Of a stretch of 64,000 bases of DNA, positions 13 through 31,315 are shown piece by piece; position 1 is the first letter of the stretch, and each line of letters starts with the position of its first letter. The notes under the pieces are model-generated. The model did not search any database and was not told where the DNA came from. It saw nothing but the letters and a program-made list of their open reading frames with translations. A program made the position numbers and the translations under genes. Where the stretch lies: contig JAJFIV010000031.1 of assembly GCA_021774625.1 (NCBI GenBank), positions 64,180 through 128,179 of the forward strand, in the 5' to 3' direction. This DNA comes from Alphaproteobacteria bacterium (lineage in GTDB: Bacteria; Pseudomonadota; Alphaproteobacteria; Sphingomonadales; JAKSBY01).

Positions 13-1164
13 ATGAAAATCACCTTTGTGCCCCATAAGCCTTTGCCTGATCGGGATGCCGATGCGGAACAACTGGTCAATAGTGCGGCAGCCCTGGCGC
101 GGGCCGGGCATGAAGTGACGCTGCTGGCGCCCTGCTATCCGGGTCAGACCGCGCCCGATGCGTCCATGCTTGCGGATTATTATAAGCTTGAGGGGAATTT
201 TTCCGTTGCCGGGCAGGCCATCCCGAATTTGCCGCACCCTTTTTTGCGCAGTTTGTATCACGCCGTGAAATCCTTGCGGCATCCGGCTGTAAGAAATGCG
301 GACGTGGTTTTCACCCGGCGGCTGGAAATGCTGGCCCCTGGTCTGCTGTGCGGTTTGAACATGGCGTTTGATCATTACCGCCCCTGGGGGGATAATCTGC
401 CCATGCTGCGGCCCTTTTTCAGGTGGGCCCTGCGGCGGCGGAATTTTGTGGCGGCCTTTCTTCATTCTGGTTTTGCGGCGGAAAGTTACAAGCGGCTCGG
501 CGTCAGGCAGGATAAAATCTTCGTAGCCCATAACGGTTATACGCCGGCGATCATGGAACCGCGGCTGTCCCGGCTGGAGGCCCGTAAAAAGCTCGATCTG
601 CCGCCGGATATTCCCGTTGTGACCTATGCGGGGCGGCTGTCGCAGACCAAAGGTCTGGATCAGCTGATGGCCATGGCCGGGAAACTGCCGGATGTGCGCT
701 TTCTGCTGGTCGGCGGTACAGGCGGCCCGCTTGAAAAAGCGGCGGCCCGCTTTGCCAATATAACAATCATTCCCTGGCAGCCTTTCGACGCCCTTCCCCC
801 TTATCTTTATGCGGCGGATATTCTGGTTATCCCGCCGTCGTGTGCGCCGCTGCAAAAGCACAAAAATGCCGTTCTGCCGATTAAGACTTTTCTCTATCTA
901 GCGGCCGGCCGGCCCATCCTGGCGCCGGTGTCGCCGGACACGGAAGAATTGCTGATCCATGGTGAAACGGCTTATCTGGTTGCACCCGACGATCCAGGAC
1001 GGGCAGCGGCCGCCGTACGGGAACTGATTGGTAATGCGGAACTGGCAGCAACGCTGACAAAAGGGGCGCTGCGTCTGGCGCAGAATCTCACCTGGGACAA
1101 ACGGGGGCAAAAAATCAGCGCTGTTCTGCGGGAAAAACTGAAAACCGGGTCTGCGGTATCATGA
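13..1164 (+). CDS. Glycosyltransferase, GT-B fold (family 4-like)
   Basis: 383-aa ORF. The C-terminal half has a GT4-like layout (VTYAGRLSQTKGLDQL, LPIKTFLYLAAGRPILAP, GETAYLVAPDDP). Its stop overlaps the next start (ATGA at 1161-1164). Confidence 0.75.
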   Translation: MKITFVPHKPLPDRDADAEQLVNSAAALARAGHEVTLLAPCYPGQTAPDASMLADYYKLEGNFSVAGQAIPNLPHPFLRSLYHAVKSLRHPAVRNADVVFTRRLEMLAPGLLCGLNMAFDHYRPWGDNLPMLRPFFRWALRRRNFVAAFLHSGFAAESYKRLGVRQDKIFVAHNGYTPAIMEPRLSRLEARKKLDLPPDIPVVTYAGRLSQTKGLDQLMAMAGKLPDVRFLLVGGTGGPLEKAAARFANITIIPWQPFDALPPYLYAADILVIPPSCAPLQKHKNAVLPIKTFLYLAAGRPILAPVSPDTEELLIHGETAYLVAPDDPGRAAAAVRELIGNAELAATLTKGALRLAQNLTWDKRGQKISAVLREKLKTGSAVS

Positions 1165-2663
1165 AAGATCTATCGGATCAGGAACAGTCCGTCAGGGATT
1201 TTTCCGATATTTTGCGGGGCGCTGCCGCCGTTTTCGGCGGGTTTCTCAGCCGCACCGGAACACGTCTTGCCTTCCTGTTTGTCGCCGGGAATCTCTATGG
1301 CGCGGCGGCGCTTGGCGAACTCGCCTTTTTCCTTGCGGTGGTGGAAACCCTGGCTGCGGTCGCGGTCTTCGGCCTAAAAAAATCCCTGTTCGGCTTTGTC
1401 GATCATGATAAACGGGATCCGGCGCGCACGGCGGCCATTGTCAAGAATGCCCTTGTATTCAGCTGCGGGCTTGCCCTTTTGTTTGCCATTGTGCTTGCGG
1501 GGTTTGCCTGGCCGTTTCTGGATTTGCCGGGCAGCCCGGCTTACCTGCGATTTTTCTCATTCATCATCCCGCTGATCGTTTTGACGGATATCCTGTTGAC
1601 AGCGACCCGCATCACCCGGGTCATGCGCTATCTCGTCTATGCCCGTTCTGTTGCCGAACCCATTGCCCTGCTTCTGTTTGCGCTTTTGTTTTTCTTCACG
1701 GATCTGCAGGCCGAAGGGCTTTTGTTATCGTATGCCGGATCTATTTTTGTTGCCTTCACCGTTGCGCTTTATGGCTATGGCAGTTTGCTGTCTTTTCAGG
1801 GGCTGGTGCGGGCGAAGATCAGTATCCGTGATATAAGGCGCATTGCGCGGGTTTCGCTGCCGACAACCCTGGCGGACATTGGCAGCCTGCTGATCCGCCG
1901 GATCGATGTTTTCTTTCTCTGGCATTTTACGTCGGAGGAAGTTGTCGGCATCTATTATGCCGTCCAGAGCATCGCCACCAATATTCAAAAAACCCGGCAG
2001 CTTTTCTCCCCGGTTCTCGCGCCGGTTATCGCCCAGAGCATGGCCAGGCGGTCCATGGAGGCGGCGGCAAACCGCCTTCGGCTGGTCTCCCGCTGGATAT
2101 TGACCCTGCAACTGGCGCAACTGATTTTGCTGTCGCTTTTCGCCGCGCCGCTGCTCGGGCTTGTCGGTCCGGGAATGGAGGCCGGGGCCGTTGCGTTGAT
2201 GATCATTCTGGCCGGGGAAGTTTTTGAGGGAACCTTTGGCCTGCTGGATCTTCCCATCGTGTTCAGACGTCCCTCCATCAACACATATCTGGTTTCGGCG
2301 GGTCTTCTTCTGATGGCTGTTCTTTGCTATATTCTGGTTCCTCTTTACGGGCTGGAAGGCGCGGCGCTGTCGCTAACCTCGGTGTTTATTTTTATCAATG
2401 GCGCCCGGCTTTATATCCTGAAACGGGTTTTTGGATTTTCCGGGCTGGAACGGGCCTATCTCAAACCGGCCGCCGCGGCGGTTGTTACGGCCGTGATGCT
2501 GTTCTTTGCCGTTGGATTCCCGGTATTTAGAAGCGGCTTTGGGCTGGCGGCAGTCTTTATGCTGACAATTTTCAGCTATGCCGGTCTGCTCATGCTTCTG
2601 GGCATCAGCCAGCAGGACAGGGATTTGTACCGGATGATGCGAGGCAGGAAAAAAGACCGCTAG
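1161..2663 (+). CDS. MOP/Wzx-type polysaccharide or oligosaccharide flippase-like membrane protein
   Basis: 500-aa ORF that is almost entirely hydrophobic helices (about 12-14), with the size and layout of 'polysaccharide biosynthesis protein' flippases. It is translationally coupled to the upstream glycosyltransferase. Confidence 0.6.
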   Translation: MKDLSDQEQSVRDFSDILRGAAAVFGGFLSRTGTRLAFLFVAGNLYGAAALGELAFFLAVVETLAAVAVFGLKKSLFGFVDHDKRDPARTAAIVKNALVFSCGLALLFAIVLAGFAWPFLDLPGSPAYLRFFSFIIPLIVLTDILLTATRITRVMRYLVYARSVAEPIALLLFALLFFFTDLQAEGLLLSYAGSIFVAFTVALYGYGSLLSFQGLVRAKISIRDIRRIARVSLPTTLADIGSLLIRRIDVFFLWHFTSEEVVGIYYAVQSIATNIQKTRQLFSPVLAPVIAQSMARRSMEAAANRLRLVSRWILTLQLAQLILLSLFAAPLLGLVGPGMEAGAVALMIILAGEVFEGTFGLLDLPIVFRRPSINTYLVSAGLLLMAVLCYILVPLYGLEGAALSLTSVFIFINGARLYILKRVFGFSGLERAYLKPAAAAVVTAVMLFFAVGFPVFRSGFGLAAVFMLTIFSYAGLLMLLGISQQDRDLYRMMRGRKKDR

Positions 2664-2672
2664 GTCCTGACC

Positions 2673-3383
2673 CTAGGCGTTCAGGTATCGCCTGGCTTTT
2701 TCAAAGGCGGCTGCATCGTCCATGTCGATCCAGAATTTATCGCCAATATCATGGGTGCGGGCATTTCCGTGGTCCGCCAGCCAGCGGACACCGCCGCTTA
2801 ATGATGCGTCGCCTTTTTCAGCAATGCTGTGTTCAATCGCGCTGAAAACAGCCGGGGTCGCCAGTAACACACCGGTATCGAAGGCATTGAAGGAAGCCAG
2901 ATCCTTGCCGATATCCCTGATATGACCATCCTGCTGCAAAACCCGGGTGACATCATCCAGATCGACATCCGGGTTATCCAGCCTTTGGTCGATGGCGAGG
3001 ATGAGTTCATGTTCGCCGATGGGCCGCGCCGCCAGGCCGCGTATGATATCGGGATCAACGATATGATCGCACATGGTCAGGATAAACGGCCCATCAAGGC
3101 GGCCTTTTGCAGTCAGTACCGAATAGCCGTTGGGTTTTGCAAAATCATTATTTTCAATACAGATAATTTCCACCCGGCGCTTTTCGGCCAATTGGTGCAG
3201 ATGGCGGCGCAATTCACCCGACCGGTAACCGGTCACCACAAAGAAACGCCCGGCGCCGCCGCTGCGGGCGCGGCAAATGACATGATCGATCAGGGTTGAA
3301 TGGCCGAGCCGGGTCAGGGGCTTGCTTTTGCTGACGGCCTTAAGCCGTGTGCCCTTGCCGGCGGCGATAATCAGGCAGTCCAT
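2673..3383 (-). CDS. Sugar-phosphate nucleotidyltransferase, candidate CTP:inositol-1-phosphate cytidylyltransferase
   Basis: 236 aa with the N-terminal signature LIIAAGKGTRLK (GxGTRL). Size and layout resemble LicC/IPCT-type cytidylyltransferases. It starts 4 nt after the ino1 stop on the same strand. Confidence 0.6.
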   Translation of the reverse strand: MDCLIIAAGKGTRLKAVSKSKPLTRLGHSTLIDHVICRARSGGAGRFFVVTGYRSGELRRHLHQLAEKRRVEIICIENNDFAKPNGYSVLTAKGRLDGPFILTMCDHIVDPDIIRGLAARPIGEHELILAIDQRLDNPDVDLDDVTRVLQQDGHIRDIGKDLASFNAFDTGVLLATPAVFSAIEHSIAEKGDASLSGGVRWLADHGNARTHDIGDKFWIDMDDAAAFEKARRYLNA

Positions 3384-3387
3384 GGCG

Positions 3388-4533
3388 TTATTCGGCCGCG
3401 TCCGCCTTCTCGAAGCGGATGGATGGCTTTTTCTCCTGATTCTGCCGGATAAAGGCTTCTGTCAGCGCATAGGCTTCGTCGTCGGCATGCTGAACCGGAG
3501 GGTGTTTGCAGAGAAAGGCGGATGGACCTTCCAGAACGCCGCCGAGCCCCTTGTCCAGCGCCAGCTTGCACATGCGAATGCTGTCTATGGCCACGCCGGC
3601 GGAATTTGGCGAATCTTCCACGGATAGCCTGAGTTCCAGATTCAGCGGCATATCGCCGAACATGCTGCCCTCCATACGGATAAAGGCTACCTTGTTATCA
3701 TTCTGCCAGGGCACATAATCGCTGGGCCCTATATGGATATTCTCATCGTCAAGCCGCTCGCCCGCGACCGACTGCACGGCTTCGGTCTTGGAGATTTTCT
3801 TGGAGGCCAGCCGGTCATAATTCTTCATATTGAGAAAATCGGTATTGCCGCCGGTATTCAACTGATAGGTCCGGTCAAGCCGGATGCCGCGCTTTTGGAA
3901 CAGATTGGCCAGCATGCGATGGACGATGGTCGCCCCGAGCTGTGATTTTATGTCGTCGCCGACAATCGGCAGGCTTTTTGCCGCAAACCGGTTCGCCCAC
4001 GAGGGATCGCTGGCGATAAAAACCGGAATGTTGTTGATAAAACCGCAGCCCGCTTCAAGGGCGCATTCCGCATAGAATTCTGTCGCTTTCTGGCTGCCGA
4101 CCGGAAGATAGTTGACAACGATATCGGTCTTTGTTTGACGCAGAATATCCACAATCTCATCCTTTGTCAGTTCCGGCTTATCGGAAACCAGGAATGTCCG
4201 GTCTTCGGATTGCGTGGCCATGTGATCTGAAAAACCGTCCAGCACCGGACCTTTTTTAACAATAACACCGGTCGGCGGCACGTCTTTGCAGATGACGGTT
4301 GTGCAGTTTGGTTTGGCAAAAATTGCCTCGGCCACATCGCGGCCCACTTTGCGTCTGTCGATATCGAAAGCGGCTGCGACCTGGATATCCGTGGATAAAT
4401 ACTGACCTATTTTCAGGTGCATCAAACCGGCGGGCTGCACCTCATGACCGGCTTTATAATATTGGATACCCTGTATCAGAGCGCTCGCACAATTGCCGAC
4501 ACCGACAATAGCGATATTAATTTTATGATTCAC
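3388..4533 (-). CDS. ino1: myo-inositol-1-phosphate (inositol-3-phosphate) synthase
   Basis: 381 aa with the NAD-binding N-terminus IAIVGVGNCASALIQG. Blocks GDDIKSQLGATIVHR, NTGGNTDFLN and SKKISKTEAV are typical of bacterial/archaeal MIPS. Confidence 0.9.
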   Translation of the reverse strand: MNHKINIAIVGVGNCASALIQGIQYYKAGHEVQPAGLMHLKIGQYLSTDIQVAAAFDIDRRKVGRDVAEAIFAKPNCTTVICKDVPPTGVIVKKGPVLDGFSDHMATQSEDRTFLVSDKPELTKDEIVDILRQTKTDIVVNYLPVGSQKATEFYAECALEAGCGFINNIPVFIASDPSWANRFAAKSLPIVGDDIKSQLGATIVHRMLANLFQKRGIRLDRTYQLNTGGNTDFLNMKNYDRLASKKISKTEAVQSVAGERLDDENIHIGPSDYVPWQNDNKVAFIRMEGSMFGDMPLNLELRLSVEDSPNSAGVAIDSIRMCKLALDKGLGGVLEGPSAFLCKHPPVQHADDEAYALTEAFIRQNQEKKPSIRFEKADAAE

Positions 4534-4764
4534 AAACGCCCTCCAACCTCTTTATGCTCTCTAGCGGAATAGTCTGTCCAACATGAACACAGCATTAAAA
4601 TGCAAACCATAAGAAGTGATATGGCGCAAATACATCGCTCATACGCTTCCCAGAGCCATACTTGTTTTCCTATATATGATCCTGACGCGAACGCAAACCC
4701 CAGAAGCGCTCTCTATGACAAATTCATTACTGTCGGTCCTGTCTATATAAGACGAAGCCGCTCA

Positions 4765-6120
4765 TTAAAAATATTCCGTGTCTTTGAAATTTTTAGCGAT
4801 GACGGAACTTTGCGCGCCGGCATAATCCCGGACCTGGACCATAAAGCGCCACTGGCCGAGCAAAAAAGTGATAACGGTATAAAAGGCCATAACCCAGAGC
4901 CCCAGCCACCAGGCTCCAAACAGCGCAAACGGGATGAAACTCCAGAAAATCGTATTGCGCCGGGCTCCGACAATGCGAATCTGCCGTTCCAGCGGCCCGG
5001 CATCATCCAGTTGGCGGCCGGTCATCCGGCGGAAAAATTCCGCCTGAACGGCTTCCGCCCAGGAAAAAAGCACCAGCAGAGTTGCCAGAACCCAGGGCCC
5101 GCTGTCATTATTGGCGCTTGAAAGATAGTAGGCAAGACCGAAATACCAGGAATATTCTACCAGTTTATCCAGAATATGTTCAAGCTGCCCCGCATTCGAC
5201 GCGAGCATTTTGACCCGCGCCAGCTTGCCATCCACGCCATCCAGAATGCCGATCGCCAGGGTGCCGATCAGGGCGGGCCATAAATAGCCGGTGGCAAACA
5301 GATAGGTGATGAAAAATCCCAGAACGCCCGTCAAAACCGTAACCATGTTGGGTGTAAGGGGTGTATTCAGGCTATAGCGGACGATAAAATTCTCCGCTGC
5401 GGGATGCAGCCACCTGCCCGGCCAGTCGAGAACGCCTTTTTGGGCGGCTGCAATCAGACCATCCGTTGCTTTTCCGGCTTCCTCCGCATTTCCGGCAGGC
5501 CGCCACATCAAGGGCACATCACGGCGCCGGCCCGGAATATATTCAGGAAGCTTGCCGATATCGATCATTTTGACCCGTTTGTCCGCCAATGCCTTTTCCA
5601 GCAGCGATTCCATGGTGCGGTCAGTAATATCCTGTGAGAGCACATTTTTTAAAAGATCCGCCGGGACTTTGGCGGCGGACGCGAACAGCCGGTCTATACC
5701 ATTATGCTGCATGGAAATCCCGTCCGCATGACCGGCAACCACGGCCTTGGGCGGAAACAGGGCCAATACAGGGGCAGTCCGGTGTTGATAGACCGCTTCG
5801 ATGATCCGGTCATCAACCACGACGCTCTCTTCAAGGATGAGGAATTCATCGCCGTCCTGCAGCCAGGATGCCATGCTCATGTCCGTTTTCAGATCAATGA
5901 CAGAGAGGGAATCCGGGACTTTTCGGAAATTCCCCTTTTCCCGATGCAGTATTTCCGGAAAATCGCGGGAAAGTATGATGGTTTCATCCAGCCCCAGTTT
6001 TTTGATCTGGCGGAGCTGTCTTTCGATCAGACTGATGCCGCCGGCGCTGAGCAGGGCGCGGGGCTCACCGGGTTGTTCCTTGATTGTCTTGTCGGCAAAA
6101 ATAAGCGCCTTCGTCGCCAT
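4765..6120 (-). CDS. Fusion protein: nucleotidyltransferase-like N-domain (degenerate signature) plus CDP-alcohol phosphotransferase membrane domain (IPCT/DIPPS-like architecture)
   Basis: The ORF track gives 4765-6276. I prefer Met53 (MATKALIF, nt 6120), which removes the overlap with the divergent gene at 6206. The N-half is NTP-transferase-like but lacks GxGTR (ALIFADKTIKEQPGEPRALL). The C-half is multi-TM with DGVDGKLARVKMLASNAGQLEHILDKLVE. Confidence 0.65.
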   Translation of the reverse strand: MATKALIFADKTIKEQPGEPRALLSAGGISLIERQLRQIKKLGLDETIILSRDFPEILHREKGNFRKVPDSLSVIDLKTDMSMASWLQDGDEFLILEESVVVDDRIIEAVYQHRTAPVLALFPPKAVVAGHADGISMQHNGIDRLFASAAKVPADLLKNVLSQDITDRTMESLLEKALADKRVKMIDIGKLPEYIPGRRRDVPLMWRPAGNAEEAGKATDGLIAAAQKGVLDWPGRWLHPAAENFIVRYSLNTPLTPNMVTVLTGVLGFFITYLFATGYLWPALIGTLAIGILDGVDGKLARVKMLASNAGQLEHILDKLVEYSWYFGLAYYLSSANNDSGPWVLATLLVLFSWAEAVQAEFFRRMTGRQLDDAGPLERQIRIVGARRNTIFWSFIPFALFGAWWLGLWVMAFYTVITFLLGQWRFMVQVRDYAGAQSSVIAKNFKDTEYF

Positions 6121-6205
6121 AGGTATGGACCCGGAATTTAAATGAGTGGATGATTTGCCAAGGATTTGTCTGTATGTCCAGAAAAGATGGTGAAAATATG
6201 AAACT

Positions 6206-7105
6206 TTGCAAGACCTCAAGGATTTTATGAGCGCGCACCCTGCCCAACGCCCTCGGGAAATCGAGGAGCTGACCAACCGCTTCCTGATCCATCCGGCTGG
6301 CCAATTTCTCCTGAAGCCACTGGCCAGTGCCGGTATTCATCCCAATTTCGTCTCTTTCGCCGGCTTGTTTGCAGGGATGGGCGCGGCCTATTTTTACTAT
6401 AATTATTATCAGAACCCCCTGGCGGCGACGCTGGGTTTCCTGTTGATGCTTGTCTGGCATATCACTGATGGGATTGATGGCCGTCTGGCCCGGATGACCG
6501 GGAAAGACTCGCAGCTTGGCAAGGTAATTGATGGTCTGGTCGATTATGTGGTTTTTATTCTGGTCTATGTCTTCATGTCTTTGGCGTTTGCTGAAAAGGA
6601 AGGGTATTGGATTGCGTGGTATGGCCCTTTTGCCGGTTTATTCCATATCATACAGGCGGCGGCTTATGAAAAAAGACGGGAAGACTATATCGCCTGGAAA
6701 TATGGTTCAGAGCTGAACTCTTCCGCGGTCTTGAAAGAAGAGAAAAGTTTCAAATTGTCGTCGCTGGCAGTCATTTTTGACTGGTTCTATCAGCAAATAC
6801 AGAAGGCTGGCGGACAAAGCCAGACGATGCAGGAATTGAAGTCCCGCATAGACCGTCTCGCACCCGCTAAACAACAGCGCATACGGCGGGAATATTGTAA
6901 CCGCTACGCGCCCCTCTTGCGTCAATGGTCTTTGCTGAGCGCCAACACCCGGACCATGGCAATTTATATTGCCTGTCTGGCGGCGGGCCCGCTCTATTAT
7001 TTCCTGTTCGAGATCATCCTTCTCAATCTGGTCATGCTTTGGCTGTTAATCAGACAAAGGCGTTTCGACCAAAGATTTTGTGAATGGACGCTGCAACGAA
7101 TATAA
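6206..7105 (+). CDS. CDP-alcohol phosphatidyltransferase family membrane protein
   Basis: 299 aa with the canonical motif DGIDGRLARMTGKDSQLGKVIDGLVD (D-x2-DG-x2-AR-x8-G-x3-D-x3-D) from nt 6467, plus several hydrophobic helices. The ORF starts with TTG at 6206. An alternative ATG lies at 6227. Confidence 0.75.
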   Translation: MQDLKDFMSAHPAQRPREIEELTNRFLIHPAGQFLLKPLASAGIHPNFVSFAGLFAGMGAAYFYYNYYQNPLAATLGFLLMLVWHITDGIDGRLARMTGKDSQLGKVIDGLVDYVVFILVYVFMSLAFAEKEGYWIAWYGPFAGLFHIIQAAAYEKRREDYIAWKYGSELNSSAVLKEEKSFKLSSLAVIFDWFYQQIQKAGGQSQTMQELKSRIDRLAPAKQQRIRREYCNRYAPLLRQWSLLSANTRTMAIYIACLAAGPLYYFLFEIILLNLVMLWLLIRQRRFDQRFCEWTLQRI

Positions 7106-7196: not shown

Positions 7197-9551
7197 TTGA
7201 AGGAATCTGTGGTGATCAGGCCGACGCTTTTACCCGTATTGGTTTTTCTCTCAATCTTTTCTTTAGCTGCCTGTGGCGGCGGGTCCGGCACGCCTGTCGC
7301 GCCAAGACCGGTGGCGGCGCCCCCGCCCCCTCCTCCCCCTCCTCCACCACCGCCGTCACCCTTCAACACACAGGAATTCAGGCTTAATTTTGGTCTGGGC
7401 AGCATCAATGCGATTCCAGCCTTTGAAGACGGTTTAACGGGCGAGGGGGTGATTGTTGGTGTCATCGACACCGGAATTGATCTGGATCATTCCGATCTCA
7501 ACGCCAATATTCATCCGGCGAGCACGGATGTCGGCCCGCGCGCCACGCCCAATGCCGATGATGTGGACGGTCATGGCACTCTGGTGGCGGGTATTATCGC
7601 TGCGGAAAAAAATAATAACAGAACACATGGCGTGGCGTTTAATGCGCAAATTCTGTCGGTGCGCGCGGAAGAGTCGAATTGCGATGAAACATGCCAGTTT
7701 ACTGACAATGATATTGCGGTTGGCATCCATCACGCACTCGATAACGGCGCTCGCATCATCAATCTAAGCCTTGGCGGCGAGGGGATCAGCTTCAACCTTA
7801 GAACGGCTCTGATCCGCGCTGCGACGGAAGGCGCAGTTGTTGTTATCTCAGCCGGCAATACGGAAGAGGATGAGGATGGCCCCAGACCCAATCCCACAGA
7901 ACTGGCTCAATTTGCGCTGAATCCGGCCATGGCAGGGCATATGATTATTGTTGGCGCTACCGATGAGGGCAATCAGATTGCCGATTTTTCTCACCGGGCC
8001 GGCAACAGCCGGGCGCTCTATATTGTTGCTCCCGGGGTGTCAGTTGCGACCACGCTTCTTAATCCCGCCAGCATGTTCCAGTTTGCGATAGCCAGCGGCA
8101 CATCCTTCTCGGCGCCGCATGTTGCGGGGGCGGCGGCGCTTCTGCTGGAACAGGACCCGACGCTGACCGGCGCGGAAGTCGTGCAGATTCTTCTGGAATC
8201 TGCCACTGATCTTGGCGCTGCGGGTATCGATACTATTTTCGGGAACGGGCTGCTTAATATCGGCGCAGCCGTCCAGCCTATCGGCACCACATCCATCCCC
8301 CTCAGCGTGACCAAGGCTGAGGACGAAAACAGCAAGCCGGTTTCGACCAGCGCCGTCTCGGCGGCGGCGGCTTTCGGCGATGCGCTGACCCGCGGCGATG
8401 CTTTTTCCGATGTCATATTCCTCGATAAGTTTGGCCGGTCCTTTCACGGGGATTTTTCTCTCAAAATTCTTTCCCAGTCGCGGACCTTCAGCCTTGATGG
8501 CGTCTTAGAGAGGGACCTGTTCCAGCGGTCCGCCTCGGTCGCTTTTGCACAAGGAAATTATCTGTCACTGTCCTACCGGGACAGCCGGCTGCGGAATGAA
8601 GCCTTCCGATCCTCTCTCAGCGCATCGAGCCAGACGCTGCAGGACCCGCCGAAGCCGCGCGCCCTCTTCACATCCGATTTGACCGCGTCCCTGCATCTTT
8701 CAATGAGCTCTAATCTGCCCGTTGAAGCCTCGCTGGCGGCAAAGGACAGTCTGTATCGCCGGACCGCTGACTTCATGAATGAGGCGGCGTTTTCTGTCCC
8801 CTATATGGGGCTGGAAAACGGTCCGCGGGCGATGACGCTGGCGCAGGATCTGGGAAGCCGGTCCCGCATCGCCATGGCCGTGGCGACGGTCGAGCATGAT
8901 TTCGAGGAAACCCTGTTTGGCTTTACCGGCGAGACCTCCCGCACCACATCGGCCATGACGCGGCTCGATCACTCTTTCGGGCCGCTACATCTGGAATTTA
9001 CCGCCGGCGCTCTCATCGAGGAAAATTCGATCCTGGGAAGCCGGTCGGCGGGCGCTTTCGATATCGGCGCCGGGGCGACAACCGGCTTCACCAGCCTTGG
9101 CGCCAACTGGCGGATCAGCGAAAGGTTCAGCCTGCTTGGTCAGATTGTTCAGGGGGTAACGAAAATCCGGGACGGCGGTTCCAGCGTGTTTCAGGATGTC
9201 AGCAATTTGCGCGGCAGCGCTTTTTCCGCCGCTCTCACCGGCAGCGGGATATTTACCGCCGGCGACCGTATCGGGATTTCGCTCAGCCAGCCGCTGCGCA
9301 TTGAATCCGGTTCAGCGAATCTGATTGTGCCGACCGCACGTGATTTTGCCGCAGACCGGATCGTATATTCATCGTTTGATATTCCGCTCACGCCTTCCGG
9401 CCGGGCGCTTGACCTTGAGGTGAGTTACCGGTTCCAGCTTTTTGAGCTGCTCGATGTCGGGGCAAATTTCCTTTATCAGCGTCATCCGGGGCATGTGTCG
9501 GACCGGCCCGGTGCGGCCGCCTTTTTGCTGCGGGCATCGAGGATATTTTGA
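7197..9551 (+). CDS. Lipidated subtilisin-like (S8) autotransporter serine protease (SphB1/NalP-like)
   Basis: Lipobox LSIFSLAAC is followed by GGGSG and a poly-Pro tract. The catalytic triad blocks are VIDTGIDLDHSDL (Asp), DGHGTLVAG (His) and SGTSFSAPHVAG (Ser). The C-terminal roughly 280 aa are beta-rich and end in an aromatic residue (..LLRASRIF), as in autotransporter barrels. Confidence 0.85.
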   Translation: MKESVVIRPTLLPVLVFLSIFSLAACGGGSGTPVAPRPVAAPPPPPPPPPPPPSPFNTQEFRLNFGLGSINAIPAFEDGLTGEGVIVGVIDTGIDLDHSDLNANIHPASTDVGPRATPNADDVDGHGTLVAGIIAAEKNNNRTHGVAFNAQILSVRAEESNCDETCQFTDNDIAVGIHHALDNGARIINLSLGGEGISFNLRTALIRAATEGAVVVISAGNTEEDEDGPRPNPTELAQFALNPAMAGHMIIVGATDEGNQIADFSHRAGNSRALYIVAPGVSVATTLLNPASMFQFAIASGTSFSAPHVAGAAALLLEQDPTLTGAEVVQILLESATDLGAAGIDTIFGNGLLNIGAAVQPIGTTSIPLSVTKAEDENSKPVSTSAVSAAAAFGDALTRGDAFSDVIFLDKFGRSFHGDFSLKILSQSRTFSLDGVLERDLFQRSASVAFAQGNYLSLSYRDSRLRNEAFRSSLSASSQTLQDPPKPRALFTSDLTASLHLSMSSNLPVEASLAAKDSLYRRTADFMNEAAFSVPYMGLENGPRAMTLAQDLGSRSRIAMAVATVEHDFEETLFGFTGETSRTTSAMTRLDHSFGPLHLEFTAGALIEENSILGSRSAGAFDIGAGATTGFTSLGANWRISERFSLLGQIVQGVTKIRDGGSSVFQDVSNLRGSAFSAALTGSGIFTAGDRIGISLSQPLRIESGSANLIVPTARDFAADRIVYSSFDIPLTPSGRALDLEVSYRFQLFELLDVGANFLYQRHPGHVSDRPGAAAFLLRASRIF
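7320..7355 (+). repeat. 12 consecutive proline codons inside the autotransporter (CCN run)
   Basis: Read directly: ccc ccg ccc cct cct ccc cct cct cca cca ccg ccg. It produces a mirror poly-Gly ORF on the opposite strand. Confidence 0.95.
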
Positions 9552-13388: not shown

Positions 13389-13706
13389 ATGATGCAAAGC
13401 GCACTGAAAAAAACTCTGGTGCTGACGGCCCTGCTTGCGGGGTTCGCGGCGCTGCCCGGCGGCGCCAGCGCCCATCCGCACGGTGGATACGGGTATTATA
13501 ATGGTGGATATTATGCTCCCTCTCATTATCGGCCGCGGCATTATAAGCGCCATTACAGGTCTTACTCTTACCGCGACCGGCATGATTATTATGGCCGCGA
13601 TCATAGAAGGGACCGTGGCCATCGTGACCGCCGCCGAGGTGATCACCACGCCCGACCCCGCCACCGGAGTCATGACCCGGGGCACGGCAAGCGCAGGAAC
13701 CATTAA
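13389..13706 (+). CDS. Secreted low-complexity His/Arg/Tyr-rich protein
   Basis: The signal peptide is MMQSALKKTLVLTALLAGFAALPGGASA and an SD-like gaaagga lies upstream. The mature 77 aa contain about 14 His, 19 Arg and 12 Tyr by hand count. It is the only one of four overlapping ORFs here with an export signal. Confidence 0.55.
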   Translation: MMQSALKKTLVLTALLAGFAALPGGASAHPHGGYGYYNGGYYAPSHYRPRHYKRHYRSYSYRDRHDYYGRDHRRDRGHRDRRRGDHHARPRHRSHDPGHGKRRNH

Positions 13707-15318: not shown

Positions 15319-17559
15319 GTGGCGGTTTTTGATCTTTCCCCTGACCGCCGTACGTTCCTGAAAGTCTCCGCTGTGGGTGGCGGGCTCATGATCTTTGCCC
15401 CGCAGTTGTCTGGCGCCAAACCGGCAGAGGCCGAAGGCGACGGTCAGATTGGTCTTTATGTGAAAATCAACTCCGACAATTCCGTCATCATCGGTAGCCC
15501 CGGCAGTGAGATTGGTCAGGGCACCCAGACGTCGCTTCCCATGCTGGTGGCGGAAGAGCTGGACGTGGATTTCGCGGCGGTAGAGACGGAACTCATGCCT
15601 TTCCTGACAGGGGCCGGCGAAAATGGACGGCCGCAGCAGCTTGCCTTTACATCCGGCGCCGGTGGGAGCGATGCAATCTGGGGTAGTTATGATGGAGCCA
15701 GACAGGCCGGAGCTGCGGCCCGGCACCTGATCCTGCGAGCAGCGGCAAGAAGGTTTGATGTGCCAGTCGCTGCGCTTTCGACGGAAAAAGGCACCGTCCG
15801 GCATGCGGCCAGCGGCCGTTCGCTGACTTATGGCGAACTGGCCGCCGATGCGGCGAGGGAAAGCCTTCCCGAGGGTGAATTGCCGTTGAAGGAACGTCGT
15901 GACCACACCATTATCGGTAAGCCGCAAAAGCATAAGGATGTGCGGGCGATTGTCACCGGCGAGCCGCGTTTCGGTATTGATCAGGACTATCCGGGGGCGT
16001 TGCATGCGGTGATCGCCCGCTCGCCCTATCTGGACGGCAGGGTGCGCAATGTTGACGATAGCGCCGCCCGCGCCATGCCCGGTGTCCGGCATATCGTCGC
16101 TATTGCCCGGCCCGGTCCCGGTGAAAACCCCGCCCTCAACAATCTGGCGGCCGGTGTTGCCGTTGTTGCGGACAGCCTCTGGATAGCGATGAAGGCCCGC
16201 GATGCGTTGCGGATTGACTGGGCGCCAGGGCCAGTGCGCGAAGACAGCCGCGCCGAATATGCCAAAGCGTATGAGGCCCTGAAGGGCCGCGGCCAGGTCG
16301 TCCATGAGGACGGGGCGTTCGATCGGGCGCTGGATCAGGCGGCGCAGGTGGTGGAAGCGCAGTATGAGGTTCCGCTGGTTTCCCATTCTCCGTTGGAGCC
16401 GCAAAATTGTATCGCCGATATACGCGGCGATTGTGTCACGATCATAGCGCCCACCCAGTCACCGGGCCGGGCCGCGCGGCTTGTTGCAGAAATTGCCGGT
16501 GTTGACCCATTGTCAGTCGAGGTCAGGGTTGTGCGGTGCGGCGGCGGGTTCGGGCGGCGGCTCTATCAGGACCCTGTTGTCGAAGCCGCGCTGATTTCCA
16601 AAGCCATCGGCAAGCCGGTCAAGCTGCAATGGAGCAGGGAAGACGATATGGCCCATGATTTCTATCGCCCCGGCGGCATCCATCACATGATTGCCGGGCT
16701 GGATGGAAATGGCCGGGTCACCGCCTGGGCACACCGGCTGGCGAGCCACAGCCGGATTTTCCGCGAGGCGGACGCGGCCGAAGGTTTCTGGCGATCAGAA
16801 CTGGTCCCCGATGATTTTCCAGGGCAACTGATCCCGAACTACCGGATGGAATATTTCTACCTGCCCTCTGCTGCTCCCCGTGGTTTTTGGCGGGCGCCTA
16901 TTTCCACTTCCAATGCCTTCGCCGTACAGAGTTTCGTTGATGAAGTGGCTGCTGCATCGGGGCAGGACCCGTTGGGCCTGCGACTTGCCTTGCTGGGCGA
17001 TCAGATGCGCGATATCCGCTACGATAATCACGGCGGACCGAACTGGAATCCGGGCCGCATGGCTAATGTTGTCAAAAAGGCTGCCGCCGAAGCCGGCTGG
17101 GGCGAAAATCTGCCCGGTGGAAAAGGCAGGGGCCTTGCCTTCCATTTCACCTTCGGCACCTATGTGGCGCAGATTGCCGATGTCACTGTACAGAGCAATG
17201 GCTCCTTCAAGGTCGAACGGGTCGTGGCTGCCGCCGATTGCGGCATTCCGGTCAATCCCAACGGCATCCGGGCGCAGATGGAGGGCGGGGTTAATGATGC
17301 TCTGTCAACGGCTCTGGGGCAGGAAATCACTATTCGTGACGGTCAGGTGGAACAAGCCAATTTTGACACCTATGATATGATGCGGATCGACCGGTCGGTA
17401 GCCAATGTTGATATGCATATCGTTGAAAGCGGTGGGCCGGTGCGGGGGATGGGCGAACCGCCCGTGCCGCCGCTGGCGCCTGCCGTTACAAATGCACTTT
17501 TCAATGCCACCGGCAAACGGATCCGCAAACTGCCGATCCGTGATCAACTCAGGTCTTAG
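15319..17559 (+). CDS. Molybdopterin-binding large subunit (IorB-like), Tat-exported
   Basis: 746 aa with a GTG start and the twin-arginine leader [20 protein letters not shown]. The C-terminal block [29 protein letters not shown] is typical of this family. Confidence 0.85.
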
Positions 17560-18740
17560 ACCACCTCGAACAGCCCCGCTGCTCCCATACCGCCGCCGAC
17601 GCACATGGTGACCACCACATATTTGACGCCGCGTCGTTTGCCCTCAATGAGGGCATGGGCGGTCATGCGCGAGCCGGACATGCCATAGGGATGGCCGATG
17701 GAAATGGCGCCGCCATTAACATTGAGATTTTCATTGGGGATGCCGAGCGTATCGCGGCAGTAAAGCACTTGAACGGCGAAGGCTTCATTCAGTTCCCACA
17801 GGCCGATATCGTCCATTTTAAGCCCGTTGGCTTTCAGGACTTTGGGTACGGCAAAAACCGGACCGATACCCATTTCATCGGGCTCGACCCCGGCAACGGC
17901 TATGCCGCGGTAAATGCCGAGCGGTTCCAGACCCCGTTGTTCCGCCAGTTTGCCATCCATCAGGACACAGGCGGAGGCGCCGTCGGATAACTGGCTGGCG
18001 TTTCCTGCGGTGATGCTGGTCTCCGGCCCGATCACCGGTTTTAAACTGTTCAGGCCTTCCAGGGTCGTATTCGGTCGATTGCCTTCATCCTGTTCCAGCA
18101 GGACTTCCTTGTCGCTGATTTCCCTGGTTTCCTTGTCCTGCACCTTCATGACAGAGGGCATCGGGACAATTTCATCGTCGAATTTGCCATCGCGCTGTCC
18201 GGCTGCCGTCTGCTGCTGGCTTTGCAGCGCATACTCATCCTGCACCTCGCGGGAGATGTTATAGCGCTTAGACACCACCTCGGCGGTTTCCAGCATACTC
18301 ATATAGATATGGGGGTGTTTTGCCTTCAGTTCGGGATCCGCCGCCCGGTACATATTCATTTTATCATTCTGCACCAACGAGATAGACTCAAGCCCGCCGC
18401 CGACAACAACTTTCATGCCGTCCGTCAGAATTTGTTTTGCGGCGATGGAAATGGCCATCAGACCGGAAGCGCATTGCCGGTCAACGCTCATCCCCGCGAC
18501 CGTCACCGGCAATCCGCCGGCAAGGGCGCATTTCCGGGCAATATTCATGGCGGTGGTTCCCTGCTGCATGGCGGCGCCCATAATCACATCGTCAATTTCC
18601 GCAGGGTCGGCTTTCGATCGTGCGACAGCCTGTTCGACGGCATGACCGCCTAGCCGGGACGCATCCGTGTCATTAAAAGCGCCGCGATAAGCGCGGCCGA
18701 TGGGCGTGCGGGCAGTCGAAACAATAACAGCGTCGGACAT
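17556..18740 (-). CDS. Acetyl-CoA C-acyltransferase (thiolase)
   Basis: [17 protein letters not shown], the active-site Cys block QCASGLMAI, then GHPYGMSG and CVGGGMG. The ORF track extends to 18770, and I prefer Met11. Its stop overlaps the convergent IorB-like stop (TTAG). Confidence 0.9.
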
Positions 18741-18773
18741 GGAGGGTCTCCCAGGATCAAAAAACGACAATTG

Positions 18774-22543: not shown

Positions 22544-22554
22544 CGTCGATTGCA

Positions 22555-31131: not shown

Positions 31132-31315
31132 TCTGACCTCAAAAGCTGCAGAAACCCTAGCGGCCCATTGAGCCGAGTTCAAATATAATTTGGCAAGGTC
31201 ACAGGAAAGTTGGCGGCCATGGAAGATAAAAAGTTTACAAGACTGTAATTTCATTCATAGTTTCCATGTCTGCCAGATGACGGCTGGAACATTCCGGGGG
31301 TATGGGGAGCGGTTG

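What the first reader, a model, noticed from the sequence alone, without database searches (positions are those of the whole stretch)
2673..7105. Inositol-phosphate cluster implying a CDP-inositol route in a proteobacterium
Seen in the sequence, within 4.4 kb:
- a clear myo-inositol-1-phosphate synthase
- a stand-alone GxGTRL nucleotidyltransferase 4 nt downstream of it
- a nucleotidyltransferase-like/CDP-alcohol phosphotransferase fusion
- a second, canonical CDP-alcohol phosphotransferase, divergently transcribed
Established knowledge: the fused IPCT/DIPPS architecture makes CDP-inositol and then di-myo-inositol-phosphate in hyperthermophiles. Actinobacterial and Bacteroides-type phosphatidylinositol synthesis instead uses CDP-diacylglycerol plus inositol-1-phosphate and needs no inositol cytidylyltransferase.
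Inference: this organism activates inositol-1-phosphate as CDP-inositol and transfers phospho-inositol to two different acceptors. Candidates are diacylglycerol or ceramide, another inositol phosphate, or a glycan. Neither an inositol lipid made this way nor DIP-type solutes are standard for alphaproteobacteria.
Basis: partly seen in the sequence, partly recalled or inferred. Interest (0 to 1): 0.65.

Follow-up and report, generated by a model that had tools for sequence, protein, structure and literature searches.

The report
Conserved alphaproteobacterial CDP-inositol lipid gene module
This is a real four-gene set, conserved across sphingomonad-type bacteria, that most likely makes activated inositol (CDP-inositol) and attaches inositol phosphate to membrane lipids; the route has been shown in one bacterium and only predicted in this group.

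Summary
They are myo-inositol-1-phosphate synthase (3388-4533, -), a 236-aa nucleotidyltransferase 4 nt downstream (2673-3383, -), a nucleotidyltransferase-like/CDP-alcohol phosphotransferase fusion ("Fus", true start 6120, 451 aa) and a divergent canonical phosphotransferase ("PT2", 6227-7105, +).

- **Conservation:** 50 of 55 related genome loci with enough flank carry all four. They come from Sphingomonadales, Emcibacter and Kordiimonas.
- **Nucleotidyltransferase:** its three best solved relatives are all inositol-1-phosphate cytidylyltransferases.
- **Fus:** it has the fold and architecture of archaeal IPCT/DIPPS. Its N-domain has lost the GxGTR loop and the lysine, so it is not a second cytidylyltransferase.
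- **PT2:** it belongs to the family of the phosphotransferase in the putative "alternative inositol lipid cluster" of Prevotella/Bacteroides.
- **Neighbours:** lipid transporters and a glycosyltransferase point to an exported lipid rather than a solute.

The best reading is a Kennedy-type CDP-inositol route to inositol phospho(sphingo)lipids. The acceptors are unknown. Precedent exists in the Rhodothermus marinus IPS-IPCT-BEPIS operon, whose authors reported alphaproteobacterial homologues. I therefore rate it a new variant of a known kind, of moderate interest.

The parts
13..1164 (+). GT4-family glycosyltransferase (383 aa). Probable accessory gene that would glycosylate the inositol lipid.
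   Evidence: Pfam Glyco_trans_1_4, Glycos_transf_1 and Glyco_transf_4. Its only homologue among the fetched loci (35% identity over 378 aa) lies two genes from a PT2 homologue in Steroidobacteraceae locus L003, with a GT32-type glycosyltransferase between them and a sphingolipid-desaturase-like gene on PT2's other side. Linkage to the module is inferred.
1161..2663 (+). MOP-superfamily (Wzx / Polysacc_synt) flippase-like membrane protein (500 aa). Accessory gene.
   Evidence: Pfam Polysacc_synt 54 bits and a weak NCBIfam WZX_like hit. Homologues adjoin the module in L004, L005, L007, Emcibacter L010 (operon Fus-PT2-unknown-flippase) and Kordiimonas L042.
2673..3383 (-). [quoted passage not shown] Predicted maker of CDP-inositol.
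   Evidence: GKGTRL loop, K21 and D106 are invariant in the family alignment. Top PDB hits are 2xme, 4mnd and 4jd0, all IPCTs, with E 2e-16 to 5e-14. NCBIfam IPCT/DIPPS N-half 110.8 bits. The gene starts 4 nt after the MIPS stop.
3388..4533 (-). myo-Inositol-1-phosphate (inositol-3-phosphate) synthase (381 aa).
   Evidence: Pfam PF01658 124 bits; NCBIfam TIGR03450 449 bits, E 1e-134. It is 56-71% identical to the gene adjacent to Fus in 77 of 80 loci.
4765..6120 (-). 'Fus' (451 aa): a degenerate IPCT-like cytosolic domain (about residues 1-225) fused to a six-helix CDP-alcohol phosphotransferase domain.
   Evidence: The AlphaFold model has pLDDT 90. Foldseek's top hit is IPCT-DIPPS 4mnd (E 4e-15), followed by AF2299. 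The family profile aligns end to end with 4mnd (66 bits). The N-domain matches the IPCT family by hhalign at 93.7% probability, but the GxGTR loop and the lysine are lost. The motif is D294x2D297Gx2ARx8G311x2E314x3D318.
6121..6226 (.). AT-rich divergent intergenic region between Fus and PT2. Presumed shared promoter region.
   Evidence: Read directly from the sequence. The divergent PT2/Fus arrangement is conserved in most loci. No promoter was demonstrated.
6227..7105 (+). 'PT2' (292 aa): a canonical CDP-alcohol phosphotransferase with a helical insertion between TM4 and TM5. Predicted CDP-inositol:lipid inositolphosphotransferase.
   Evidence: Pfam PF01066 52 bits. The canonical motif plus H140, Q143, R151 and N240 are invariant. 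The model has pLDDT 90. The family profile's best PDB match is AF2299 at 63 bits, then DIPPS 40, CEPT1 40 and PgsA1 36. Full-length homologues are the phosphotransferases of the Prevotella MIPS/NTP-transferase/HAD cluster, including PT-HAD fusions.

Best explanation
The region is a conserved inositol-phosphate lipid module.

**Proposed pathway**
1. MIPS makes L-myo-inositol-1-phosphate from glucose-6-phosphate.
2. The translationally coupled 236-aa enzyme condenses it with CTP to give CDP-inositol.
3. PT2 transfers inositol phosphate from CDP-inositol to a membrane lipid alcohol. This is a Kennedy-type reaction, as shown for R. marinus BEPIS and proposed for the Bacteroidota alternative cluster. 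The acceptor would be ceramide or diacylglycerol.
4. Fus is a DIPPS-architecture enzyme whose cytidylyltransferase domain is catalytically dead. It performs a second inositol-phosphate-related transfer. The most likely acceptor is an inositol-type one, either inositol-1-phosphate or the inositol head group of the PT2 product.
5. The adjoining GT4 glycosyltransferase and Wzx-like flippase would decorate and export the lipid to the cell surface. In relatives an MMPL exporter and a Wzi-like outer-membrane protein would play similar parts.

**Shown:** gene identities, domain architecture, motif states and conservation of the linkage.

**Inferred:** the CDP-inositol product, the lipid acceptors, the order of steps, and export.
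For: - **IPCT assignment:**
- **Conserved linkage:** MIPS-IPCT-Fus with divergent or tandem PT2 across three orders. 50 of 55 adequately flanked loci carry all four genes. In Kordiimonas L042 MIPS, PT2, flippase, IPCT, MMPL and Fus are contiguous. Emcibacter L010 has the operon Fus-PT2-unknown-flippase.
- **PT2 family:** it is the family of the phosphotransferase in the Prevotella cluster of MIPS, a 236-aa NTP transferase, the PT and a HAD hydrolase. Heaver et al. 2022 proposed that this cluster acts through CDP-inositol (PMC9246714).
- **Donor type:** PT2 and Fus score best against enzymes that use soluble CDP-alcohol donors (AF2299, DIPPS, CEPT1). They score worst against PgsA and PssA.
- **Lipid context:** an MMPL/sterol-sensing-domain transporter, a MOP flippase, and a GT4 that recurs with a PT2 homologue beside a sphingolipid-desaturase-like gene.
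- **Host range and an unexplained lipid:** the carriers are mainly Sphingomonadales, which are sphingolipid producers (established knowledge). Novosphingobium acidiphilum was reported to make a sphingolipid resembling inositol-phosphoryl-dihydroceramide (PI-DHC) with no known gene cluster (PMC9246714). Six Novosphingobium loci carry this module.
Against: - No biochemical data exist for any member.
- The cytidylyltransferase substrate is inferred from homology (NF041135 scores 110 bits against a cut-off of 580) and from context. Caulobacter CpgD is a relative of the same fold that uses 3-phosphoglycerate.
- Both phosphotransferases also resemble the inositol-1-phosphate-accepting clade (AIPS/PIPS). 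A CDP-diacylglycerol donor is therefore not excluded.
- Four loci (L049, L056, L065, L072) keep only Fus and MIPS, with no IPCT on the flank held for them (L072's downstream flank is only about 0.7 kb). If IPCT is truly absent from those genomes, Fus does not depend on CDP-inositol.
- No sphingolipid gene lies in the window.
- The window's IPCT and the Prevotella NTP transferase align only over the generic N-terminal half (32% identity over 118 aa).
Confidence: 0.55

Rival explanations
1. Classical PIP route. One or both phosphotransferases use CDP-diacylglycerol as donor and inositol-1-phosphate as acceptor, giving phosphatidylinositol phosphate as in actinobacteria and B. thetaiotaomicron. 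An unlinked phosphatase would then act. The nucleotidyltransferase would serve another purpose or only one of the two enzymes.
For: - The second- and third-best NCBIfam matches of Fus, and the best two of PT2, are AIPS and PIPS.
- DIPPS, AIPS, PIPS and probably AF2299 all use inositol-1-phosphate as acceptor (established knowledge; PMC4634129).
- Fus-MIPS is the tightest linkage (77 of 80 loci). It persists where no IPCT is nearby.
Against: - Scores lie far below the family cut-offs: 31-49 bits against 170-180.
- No phosphatase is linked.
- An IPCT-like gene is coupled to MIPS in 66 of 80 loci, and also in the Prevotella cluster.
- The structural neighbours are the soluble-donor enzymes.
Confidence: 0.17
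2. Solute synthesis. Fus is a true DIPP synthase (CDP-inositol plus inositol-1-phosphate). The cell accumulates di-myo-inositol phosphate or a related phosphodiester solute. PT2 would be a separate lipid enzyme.
For: - Fus's closest characterised relative over its full length is A. fulgidus IPCT-DIPPS.
- Some sources already annotate homologues as IPCT/DIPPS.
Against: - NF041135 scores 63 bits against a cut-off of 580.
- The motif is altered (Gx2E instead of Gx3D) and there is a 7-8-residue insertion before TM5.
- DIP is known only from (hyper)thermophiles (established knowledge), and these hosts are mesophilic Sphingomonadales.
- The linked flippase, MMPL and GT4 fit a membrane product.
Confidence: 0.12
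3. The nucleotidyltransferase activates a phospho-alcohol other than inositol phosphate, for example phosphoglycerate (as CpgD does), phosphocholine or a sugar-1-phosphate. The phosphotransferases would then install that head group.
For: - The fold family is promiscuous. Caulobacter CpgD is most similar in structure to T. maritima IPCT yet uses 3-phosphoglycerate.
- The NCBIfam score is far below the equivalog cut-off.
Against: - Coupling to MIPS is near-universal: a 4-nt gap in the window and adjacency in 66 of 80 loci.
- The three best PDB matches are all IPCTs, and the alignments run the full length, including the substrate-binding half.
Confidence: 0.06

Closest known systems
Rhodothermus marinus IPS-IPCT-BEPIS operon (Jorge, Borges & Santos 2015, Environ Microbiol; described in PMC4587543)
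   Same: - A MIPS gene sits in an operon-like unit with a stand-alone IPCT and a CDP-alcohol phosphotransferase.
- CDP-inositol is the head-group donor to a lipid alcohol.
- By my recollection of the abstract, the authors reported homologues in Alphaproteobacteria.
   Different: - This module has two phosphotransferases, one of them carrying a degenerate IPCT-like domain.
- The hosts are mesophilic sphingolipid producers, so the acceptor is more likely ceramide or diacylglycerol than dialkylether glycerol.
Bifunctional IPCT/DIPPS of hyperthermophiles (A. fulgidus AF0263, PDB 4MND)
   Same: - Fus has the same two-domain architecture and fold: a cytosolic nucleotidyltransferase-fold domain, a juxtamembrane helix and a six-TM CDP-alcohol phosphotransferase.
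- The stand-alone enzyme matches the IPCT half.
   Different: - Fus's N-domain lacks the GxG(T/S)R loop and the lysine.
- Its phosphotransferase motif is one residue shorter, with Asp replaced by Glu.
- Identity is only about 17%, and the score is far below the NCBIfam cut-off.
- The cytidylyltransferase activity is supplied by a separate gene.
Putative 'alternative inositol lipid cluster' of Bacteroides vulgatus / Prevotella (Heaver et al. 2022, PMC9246714)
   Same: - PT2 is a full-length homologue of that cluster's phosphotransferase: 23-31% identity, about 240 bits to the joint profile, with the same TM4-TM5 insertion.
- Both clusters combine MIPS, a 236-aa NTP transferase and this phosphotransferase.
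   Different: - There is no HAD hydrolase here.
- There is no Fus in Bacteroidota.
- The MIPS is of a different type (381 aa here; 435 aa with NAD_binding_5 there).
- The two NTP transferases align only over the generic N-terminal half.
- The Bacteroidota pathway is itself still unproven.
AF2299 of A. fulgidus (PDB 4O6M), a CDP-alcohol phosphotransferase with a cytidylyltransferase-like domain
   Same: - It is the best PDB match of the PT2 family profile (63 bits) and the second-best match of Fus.
- Like Fus, it has a cytosolic cytidylyltransferase-like N-terminal domain.
- It binds a soluble CDP-alcohol, CDP-glycerol.
   Different: - It is archaeal, and its physiological reaction is not established.
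- Its extramembrane domain is much shorter than the 225-residue Fus domain.
PIP synthase route (PgsA1 in M. tuberculosis, BT_1523 in B. thetaiotaomicron)
   Same: - Same enzyme superfamily, with inositol-1-phosphate from MIPS as substrate.
- The end product is an inositol lipid.
   Different: - That route needs no cytidylyltransferase for inositol.
- It needs a PIP phosphatase, which is absent here.
- Both window enzymes score far below the PIPS cut-offs.

Membership tests
CDP-alcohol phosphotransferase, class I (Pfam PF01066) | Score above the Pfam gathering threshold | tested here: met
   Fus scores 35.1 bits and PT2 52.1 bits, against a cut-off of 22.
CDP-alcohol phosphotransferase, class I (Pfam PF01066) | Signature Dx2DGx2ARx8Gx3Dx3D with eight conserved residues | tested here: met
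   PT2 has D81, G82, D84, G85, A88, R89, G98, D102 and D106, a full match. Fus deviates: D294x2D297G298x2A301R302x8G311x2E314x3D318. It is one residue shorter, with Asp replaced by Glu. This variant is conserved across its family.
Bifunctional IPCT/DIPPS (NCBIfam NF041135; EC 2.7.7.74 / 2.7.8.34) | Equivalog-level sequence score (cut-off 580 bits) | tested here: not met
   Fus scores 63.2 bits, on the DIPPS half only. The stand-alone enzyme scores 110.8 bits, on the IPCT half only.
Bifunctional IPCT/DIPPS (NCBIfam NF041135; EC 2.7.7.74 / 2.7.8.34) | N-terminal domain with an intact nucleotidyltransferase active site (GxG(T/S)R loop and conserved Lys) | tested here: not met
   In Fus and 24 homologues these positions are non-conserved, and Arg replaces the Lys. 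The fold is retained.
Bifunctional IPCT/DIPPS (NCBIfam NF041135; EC 2.7.7.74 / 2.7.8.34) | Two-domain architecture: cytosolic nucleotidyltransferase fold plus six-TM phosphotransferase | tested here: met
   The profile aligns end to end with 4mnd (positions 3-411). Foldseek's top hit is 4mnd, E 4e-15.
Stand-alone IPCT (EC 2.7.7.74; T. maritima 4JD0, A. fulgidus 2XME) | Full-length similarity to characterised IPCTs, including the G-rich loop, Lys and the metal-binding Asp | tested here: met
   The top three PDB hits are IPCTs, aligned over residues 2-232. G9, G11, R13, K21 and D106 are invariant in the family.
Stand-alone IPCT (EC 2.7.7.74; T. maritima 4JD0, A. fulgidus 2XME) | Catalyses CTP + L-myo-inositol-1-phosphate -> CDP-inositol | not testable with these tools
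   This needs an enzyme assay. Only the context supports it: a 4-nt gap from MIPS and adjacency in 66 of 80 loci.
IPS-IPCT-BEPIS operon (R. marinus) | MIPS, stand-alone IPCT and a CDP-alcohol phosphotransferase in one operon-like unit | tested here: met
   The operon definition is taken from PMC4587543.
IPS-IPCT-BEPIS operon (R. marinus) | Sequence homology of the phosphotransferase to R. marinus BEPIS | not testable with these tools
   The BEPIS sequence and paper are not held.
IPS-IPCT-BEPIS operon (R. marinus) | Product is an inositol phospholipid made from CDP-inositol and a lipid alcohol | not testable with these tools
   This needs lipidomics or an in vitro assay.
Bacteroidota alternative inositol lipid cluster (Heaver 2022) | Phosphotransferase of the BVU_RS13105 / Prevotella type | tested here: met
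   PT2 shares about 26% identity over 95% of its length with P0129, which lies in such a cluster. 2476 relatives were found with the joint profile, including PT-HAD fusions.
Bacteroidota alternative inositol lipid cluster (Heaver 2022) | HAD-family hydrolase in the cluster | tested here: not met
   No HAD gene occurs in the window at 1-14 kb, nor among the conserved neighbours in 80 loci.
PIP synthase (NCBIfam NF045883 / NF052561) and AIPS (NF040950) | Equivalog-level score | tested here: not met
   Fus scores 41.6, 35.0 and 25.1 bits. PT2 scores 49.2, 30.7 and 19.5 bits. The cut-offs are 170-350.
PgsA / PssA (ordinary phospholipid synthases) | Best match to the PgsA or PssA models | tested here: not met
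   PT2 scores 27.5 and 28.8 bits against cut-offs of 107-109. Fus gives no hit. PDB PgsA and PSS rank last.

The most novel reading that the evidence does not exclude
Sphingomonad-type Alphaproteobacteria would use two successive CDP-inositol-dependent transferases to build a surface lipid unknown in bacteria.

- PT2 would make inositol-phosphoceramide directly from CDP-inositol and ceramide. This differs from the eukaryotic synthesis, which depends on phosphatidylinositol.
- Fus, a DIPPS derivative with a dead cytidylyltransferase domain, would add a second inositol phosphate to the inositol head group. GT4 could instead add sugar.
- The result would be a lipid like the eukaryotic glycosyl-inositol-phosphoceramides (GIPC) or the yeast M(IP)2C. 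It would be exported by the MMPL and Wzx-like transporters to an outer membrane that lacks LPS.
Probability: 0.15. Interest if true: 0.8.

Novelty: new variant of a known kind. Interest (0 to 1): 0.52.

Why it matters
- **Rarity.** Inositol lipids are rare in bacteria. The CDP-inositol (Kennedy-type) route has been shown in only one organism, R. marinus.
- **A defined candidate.** This module is a widespread and compact candidate for the same chemistry in Alphaproteobacteria. Relatives of Fus were found at 376 places in a collection of 185,579 bacterial and archaeal species genomes.
- **An open observation becomes testable.** Novosphingobium acidiphilum was reported to make a sphingolipid resembling inositol-phosphoryl-dihydroceramide with no known gene cluster (PMC9246714). 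This module is a candidate explanation.
- **Two distant lineages are linked.** Alphaproteobacteria and Bacteroidota, both sphingolipid producers, share one phosphotransferase family.
- **A natural pseudo-enzyme.** Fus is a DIPPS-type enzyme whose cytidylyltransferase domain has become non-catalytic. That bears on how these membrane enzymes evolve and are regulated.
- **Surface biology.** If the product is a surface glycolipid, it matters for the envelope of LPS-less sphingomonads.

Tried and rejected
- **BEPIS orthology.** The 2015 paper is not held. Four further literature searches found only secondary mentions. Whether BEPIS matches PT2 or Fus stays open.
- **Source record.** An exact look-up of the window's own contig found no record.
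- **Sphingolipid genes in the window.** None were found among the ten long ORFs scanned by Pfam between 15 and 38 kb, nor by eye in the first 14 kb. Sphingolipid production by this organism is therefore inferred from its relatives only.
- **Active fusions in relatives.** I asked whether loci lacking IPCT and PT2 (L049, L056, L065, L072) carry a fusion with an active cytidylyltransferase domain. In L049 and L065, where the Fus ORF could be read, the N-domains are equally degenerate.
- **First search with PT2.** It found only 7 relatives, because the search depends on shared words. tblastn on the fetched loci showed that PT2 is in fact conserved. The idea that PT2 is a rare addition was rejected.
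- **RNA and signal scans.** Rfam found nothing in the window. The promoter and terminator scan gave only generic consensus hits.
- **GT4 against PDB.** There was no informative PimA or MshA match.
- **Later characterisation.** Literature searches found no later study of this cluster in Alphaproteobacteria or of the Bacteroidota alternative pathway.

Full report
**Observation**

- **MIPS:** 381 aa at 3388-4533 (-). Pfam Inos-1-P_synth 124 bits; NCBIfam inositol-3-phosphate synthase 449 bits, E 1e-134.
- **Nucleotidyltransferase:** 236 aa at 2673-3383 (-). It begins MDCLIIAAGKGTRL, and its ATG lies 4 nt after the MIPS TAA stop.
- **Fusion ("Fus"):** the longest ORF is 4765-6276 (-).
- **Second phosphotransferase ("PT2"):** a divergent ORF at 6206-7105 (+).

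Homologue alignment and the database copies of the two proteins fix the real starts. Fus starts at 6120 (451 aa, MATKAL...). PT2 starts at 6227 (292 aa). A 106-bp AT-rich divergent intergenic region lies between them. Upstream of the finding, and convergent with the nucleotidyltransferase gene, lie two more genes. One is a GT4 glycosyltransferase (13-1164). The other is a Polysacc_synt/Wzx-type membrane protein (1161-2663).

**Is the grouping more than chance?**

One scan of species-representative genomes with a profile of the fusion found 376 places encoding relatives, and 80 loci were kept. Nearly all are Sphingomonadales, plus Emcibacter, Paremcibacter and Kordiimonas. The genera include Sphingosinicella, Sandaracinobacter, Sandarakinorhabdus, Polymorphobacter, Novosphingobium, Glacieibacterium and Thermaurantiacus.

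tblastn of the window proteins against these loci gave the following counts.
- MIPS lies next to Fus in 77 of 80 loci.
- PT2 is present in 67 and the nucleotidyltransferase in 66.
- Of the 55 loci with adequate flank, 50 carry all four genes.

The usual arrangement is that of the window: PT2 divergent from Fus-MIPS-IPCT. Emcibacter has Fus and PT2 in tandem. Kordiimonas has two convergent operons, Fus-MMPL-IPCT and MIPS-PT2-flippase. The linkage has therefore survived rearrangement, which argues for a shared function.

The first protein search suggested that PT2 was nearly unique, with only 7 hits. That was an artefact of word-based candidate selection.

**The stand-alone nucleotidyltransferase**

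- Its three best solved relatives are all L-myo-inositol-1-phosphate cytidylyltransferases: A. fulgidus 2XME and 4MND, and T. maritima 4JD0. E-values run from 2e-16 to 5e-14, and the alignments cover residues 2-232.
- Its best NCBIfam match is the IPCT half of IPCT/DIPPS, at 110.8 bits against 56.5 for the next family.
- The G-rich loop (G9, G11, R13), K21 and D106 are invariant across family members.

Taken with the translational coupling to MIPS, CDP-inositol synthesis is the most economical reading. It is not proven. The score is far below the equivalog cut-off of 580. A Caulobacter relative of this fold, CpgD, uses 3-phosphoglycerate.

**The fusion (Fus)**

Fold and architecture:
- An AlphaFold model built on 25 homologues is confident (pLDDT 90, pTM 0.86).
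- Its best structural matches are IPCT-DIPPS 4MND (E 4e-15) and AF2299. PIP synthases follow, and then soluble nucleotidyltransferases matching the N-domain.
- The family profile aligns with 4MND from the first strand of the N-domain into TM5 and TM6 (66 bits).
- Profile-profile comparison shows that the N-domain is homologous to the stand-alone IPCT family (93.7% probability, 204 columns, 16% identity).

The N-domain is degenerate:
- The positions of the GxG(T/S)R loop are unconserved in all 25 sequences.
- The KPL lysine is replaced by Arg.
- Fus is therefore a DIPPS-architecture protein with a degenerate cytidylyltransferase domain. This explains why a separate IPCT gene is kept.
- The domain keeps an invariant Asp-x-Arg where IPCT has its metal-binding Asp. 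It also keeps strongly conserved RRR and QKGxLDWPxR motifs at the membrane interface. A ligand-binding or docking role is possible. This is inference.

The phosphotransferase motif is a conserved variant: D294x2D297Gx2ARx8G311x2E314x3D318. It is one residue shorter than the canonical form, with Glu in place of the third Asp.

**The second phosphotransferase (PT2)**

- It has the canonical motif plus family-specific invariant residues: H140, Q143, R151 and N240.
- A confident model (pLDDT 90) shows a helical insertion between TM4 and TM5.
- Its family profile scores best against AF2299 (63 bits). DIPPS (40), CEPT1 (40) and PgsA1 (36) follow, and PSS and PgsA come last.
- Fus and PT2 are distant paralogues. 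hhalign gives 98% probability and 20% identity over TM1-TM4.

The most informative result concerns its wider family.
- PT2 is a full-length homologue of a Prevotella protein, P0129.
- P0129 lies in a cluster of a HAD hydrolase, MIPS, a 236-aa NTP transferase and this phosphotransferase.
- That is the "alternative inositol lipid cluster" for which Heaver et al. 2022 proposed a route from CDP-inositol to inositol lipid (PMC9246714).
- A joint profile recovered 2476 relatives, including the PT-HAD fusions noted in that paper.

A gammaproteobacterial PT2 homologue (38% identity) has three telling neighbours.
- One is a sphingolipid-delta4-desaturase-like gene.
- One is a GT32-type glycosyltransferase.
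- One is a GT4 that is 35% identical to the window's GT4.

**Context pointing to an exported lipid**

- The closest relatives of the window (L004-L007) and Kordiimonas carry an MMPL/sterol-sensing-domain transporter inside the module.
- Five loci besides the window carry the Wzx-like flippase.
- In 39 Sphingomonadales loci a Wzi-like outer-membrane protein adjoins IPCT.
- In 50 loci an unannotated coiled-coil membrane protein follows PT2.

No phosphatase or HAD gene is linked. This fits a direct Kennedy-type transfer better than a PIP intermediate.

**Mechanism proposed**

1. MIPS makes inositol-1-phosphate.
2. IPCT makes CDP-inositol.
3. PT2 transfers inositol phosphate to a lipid alcohol. 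Ceramide is favoured by the host range and by the desaturase context, but diacylglycerol is not excluded.
4. Fus carries out a second transfer. All its characterised relatives (DIPPS, AIPS, PIPS and probably AF2299) use inositol-1-phosphate as acceptor. Fus-MIPS is also the tightest linkage. The acceptor is therefore likely to be inositol-type: free inositol-1-phosphate or the head group of the PT2 product.
5. GT4 and the transporters then modify and export the product.

Only the gene identities, domain states and linkage are shown. All substrates are inferred. I put 0.55 on the overall CDP-inositol-to-lipid reading. The rivals are a CDP-diacylglycerol/PIP route for one or both enzymes (0.17), DIP-type solute synthesis by Fus (0.12) and a different phospho-alcohol (0.06).

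The main caveat is that four loci retain only Fus and MIPS, with no IPCT on the flank held for them.

**Comparison with what is known**

- **It works like the R. marinus IPS-IPCT-BEPIS operon** (PMC4587543; Jorge et al. 2015). By my recollection of its abstract, that paper reported homologues in Sphingobacteria and Alphaproteobacteria. Membership could not be tested, because the BEPIS sequence was unreachable.
- **It is not an IPCT/DIPPS.** The score and the N-domain active site were tested and not met.
- **It is not a PIPS, AIPS, PgsA or PssA.** The scores were tested and not met.
- **It shares one enzyme family with the Bacteroidota alternative cluster** but lacks that cluster's HAD hydrolase.
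- **No paper in the held library describes this module in Alphaproteobacteria**.

**Verdict**

The module is a new variant of a known kind. It is widely conserved, uncharacterised and experimentally tractable.

Its most useful consequence concerns the PI-DHC-like sphingolipid that Heaver et al. reported in Novosphingobium acidiphilum without a known gene cluster. This module is a concrete candidate, and six Novosphingobium loci carry it.

Noticed in passing
window 7197-9551 (+): A 784-aa S8 subtilase with a lipoprotein-type signal, a run of 13 prolines and a C-terminal region that weakly resembles a porin or autotransporter barrel (OprB, EprS). On the opposite strand the same DNA gives a poly-Gly ORF. 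It lies next to PT2 here and in L005-L007, so it may be syntenic rather than functionally linked.
   Followed up: partly
L013-L082 (for example L014 13157-14716; L084 4408-6489): In Sphingomonadales a Wzi-like capsule-assembly outer-membrane protein adjoins IPCT in 39 loci, in either orientation. An unannotated coiled-coil membrane protein of about 700 aa follows PT2 in 50 loci, overlapping it by 4 nt in L084. Neither is present in the first 20 kb of the window, the only part compared.
   Followed up: partly
L003 6964-11349 (Steroidobacteraceae MAG): A PT2 homologue sits between a sphingolipid-delta4-desaturase-like gene (Lipid_DES + FA_desaturase) and two glycosyltransferases: a GT32 Gly_transf_sug and a GT4 related to the window's. 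No MIPS or IPCT is nearby. This may be a glyco-phospho-sphingolipid cluster in a gammaproteobacterium.
   Followed up: partly
L004 7505-8221; L007 14898-15698: A membrane-anchored class I SAM methyltransferase lies beside the Wzx-like flippase in two of the window's closest relatives. It could modify the product. It is absent from the first 20 kb of the window, the only part compared.
   Followed up: no
window 18839-20731 (-): A 630-aa protein fusing an enoyl-CoA hydratase/isomerase domain to a Haem_oxygenas_2 (iron-containing redox enzyme) domain, next to a thiolase (17556-18770). This is an unusual domain combination.
   Followed up: no
window 13389-13706 (+): A small ORF with a signal peptide followed by a His/Arg/Tyr/Gly/Asp-rich low-complexity region (…HRRDRGHRDRRRGDHH…). 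Overlapping ORFs occur on both strands, and its coding status is unclear.
   Followed up: no
window 20954-25152 and 36490-38334: Three hybrid histidine kinase/response-regulator proteins lie within 18 kb. A 1187-aa PD40 beta-propeller/amidohydrolase protein lies at 27691-31254.
   Followed up: no
L010 12277-13407; L042 19835-21040: A protein of about 380-400 aa with no Pfam match. In Emcibacter it carries a probable signal peptide and lies between PT2 and the flippase; in Kordiimonas it lies just beyond MIPS. It may be a further member of the module.
   Followed up: no
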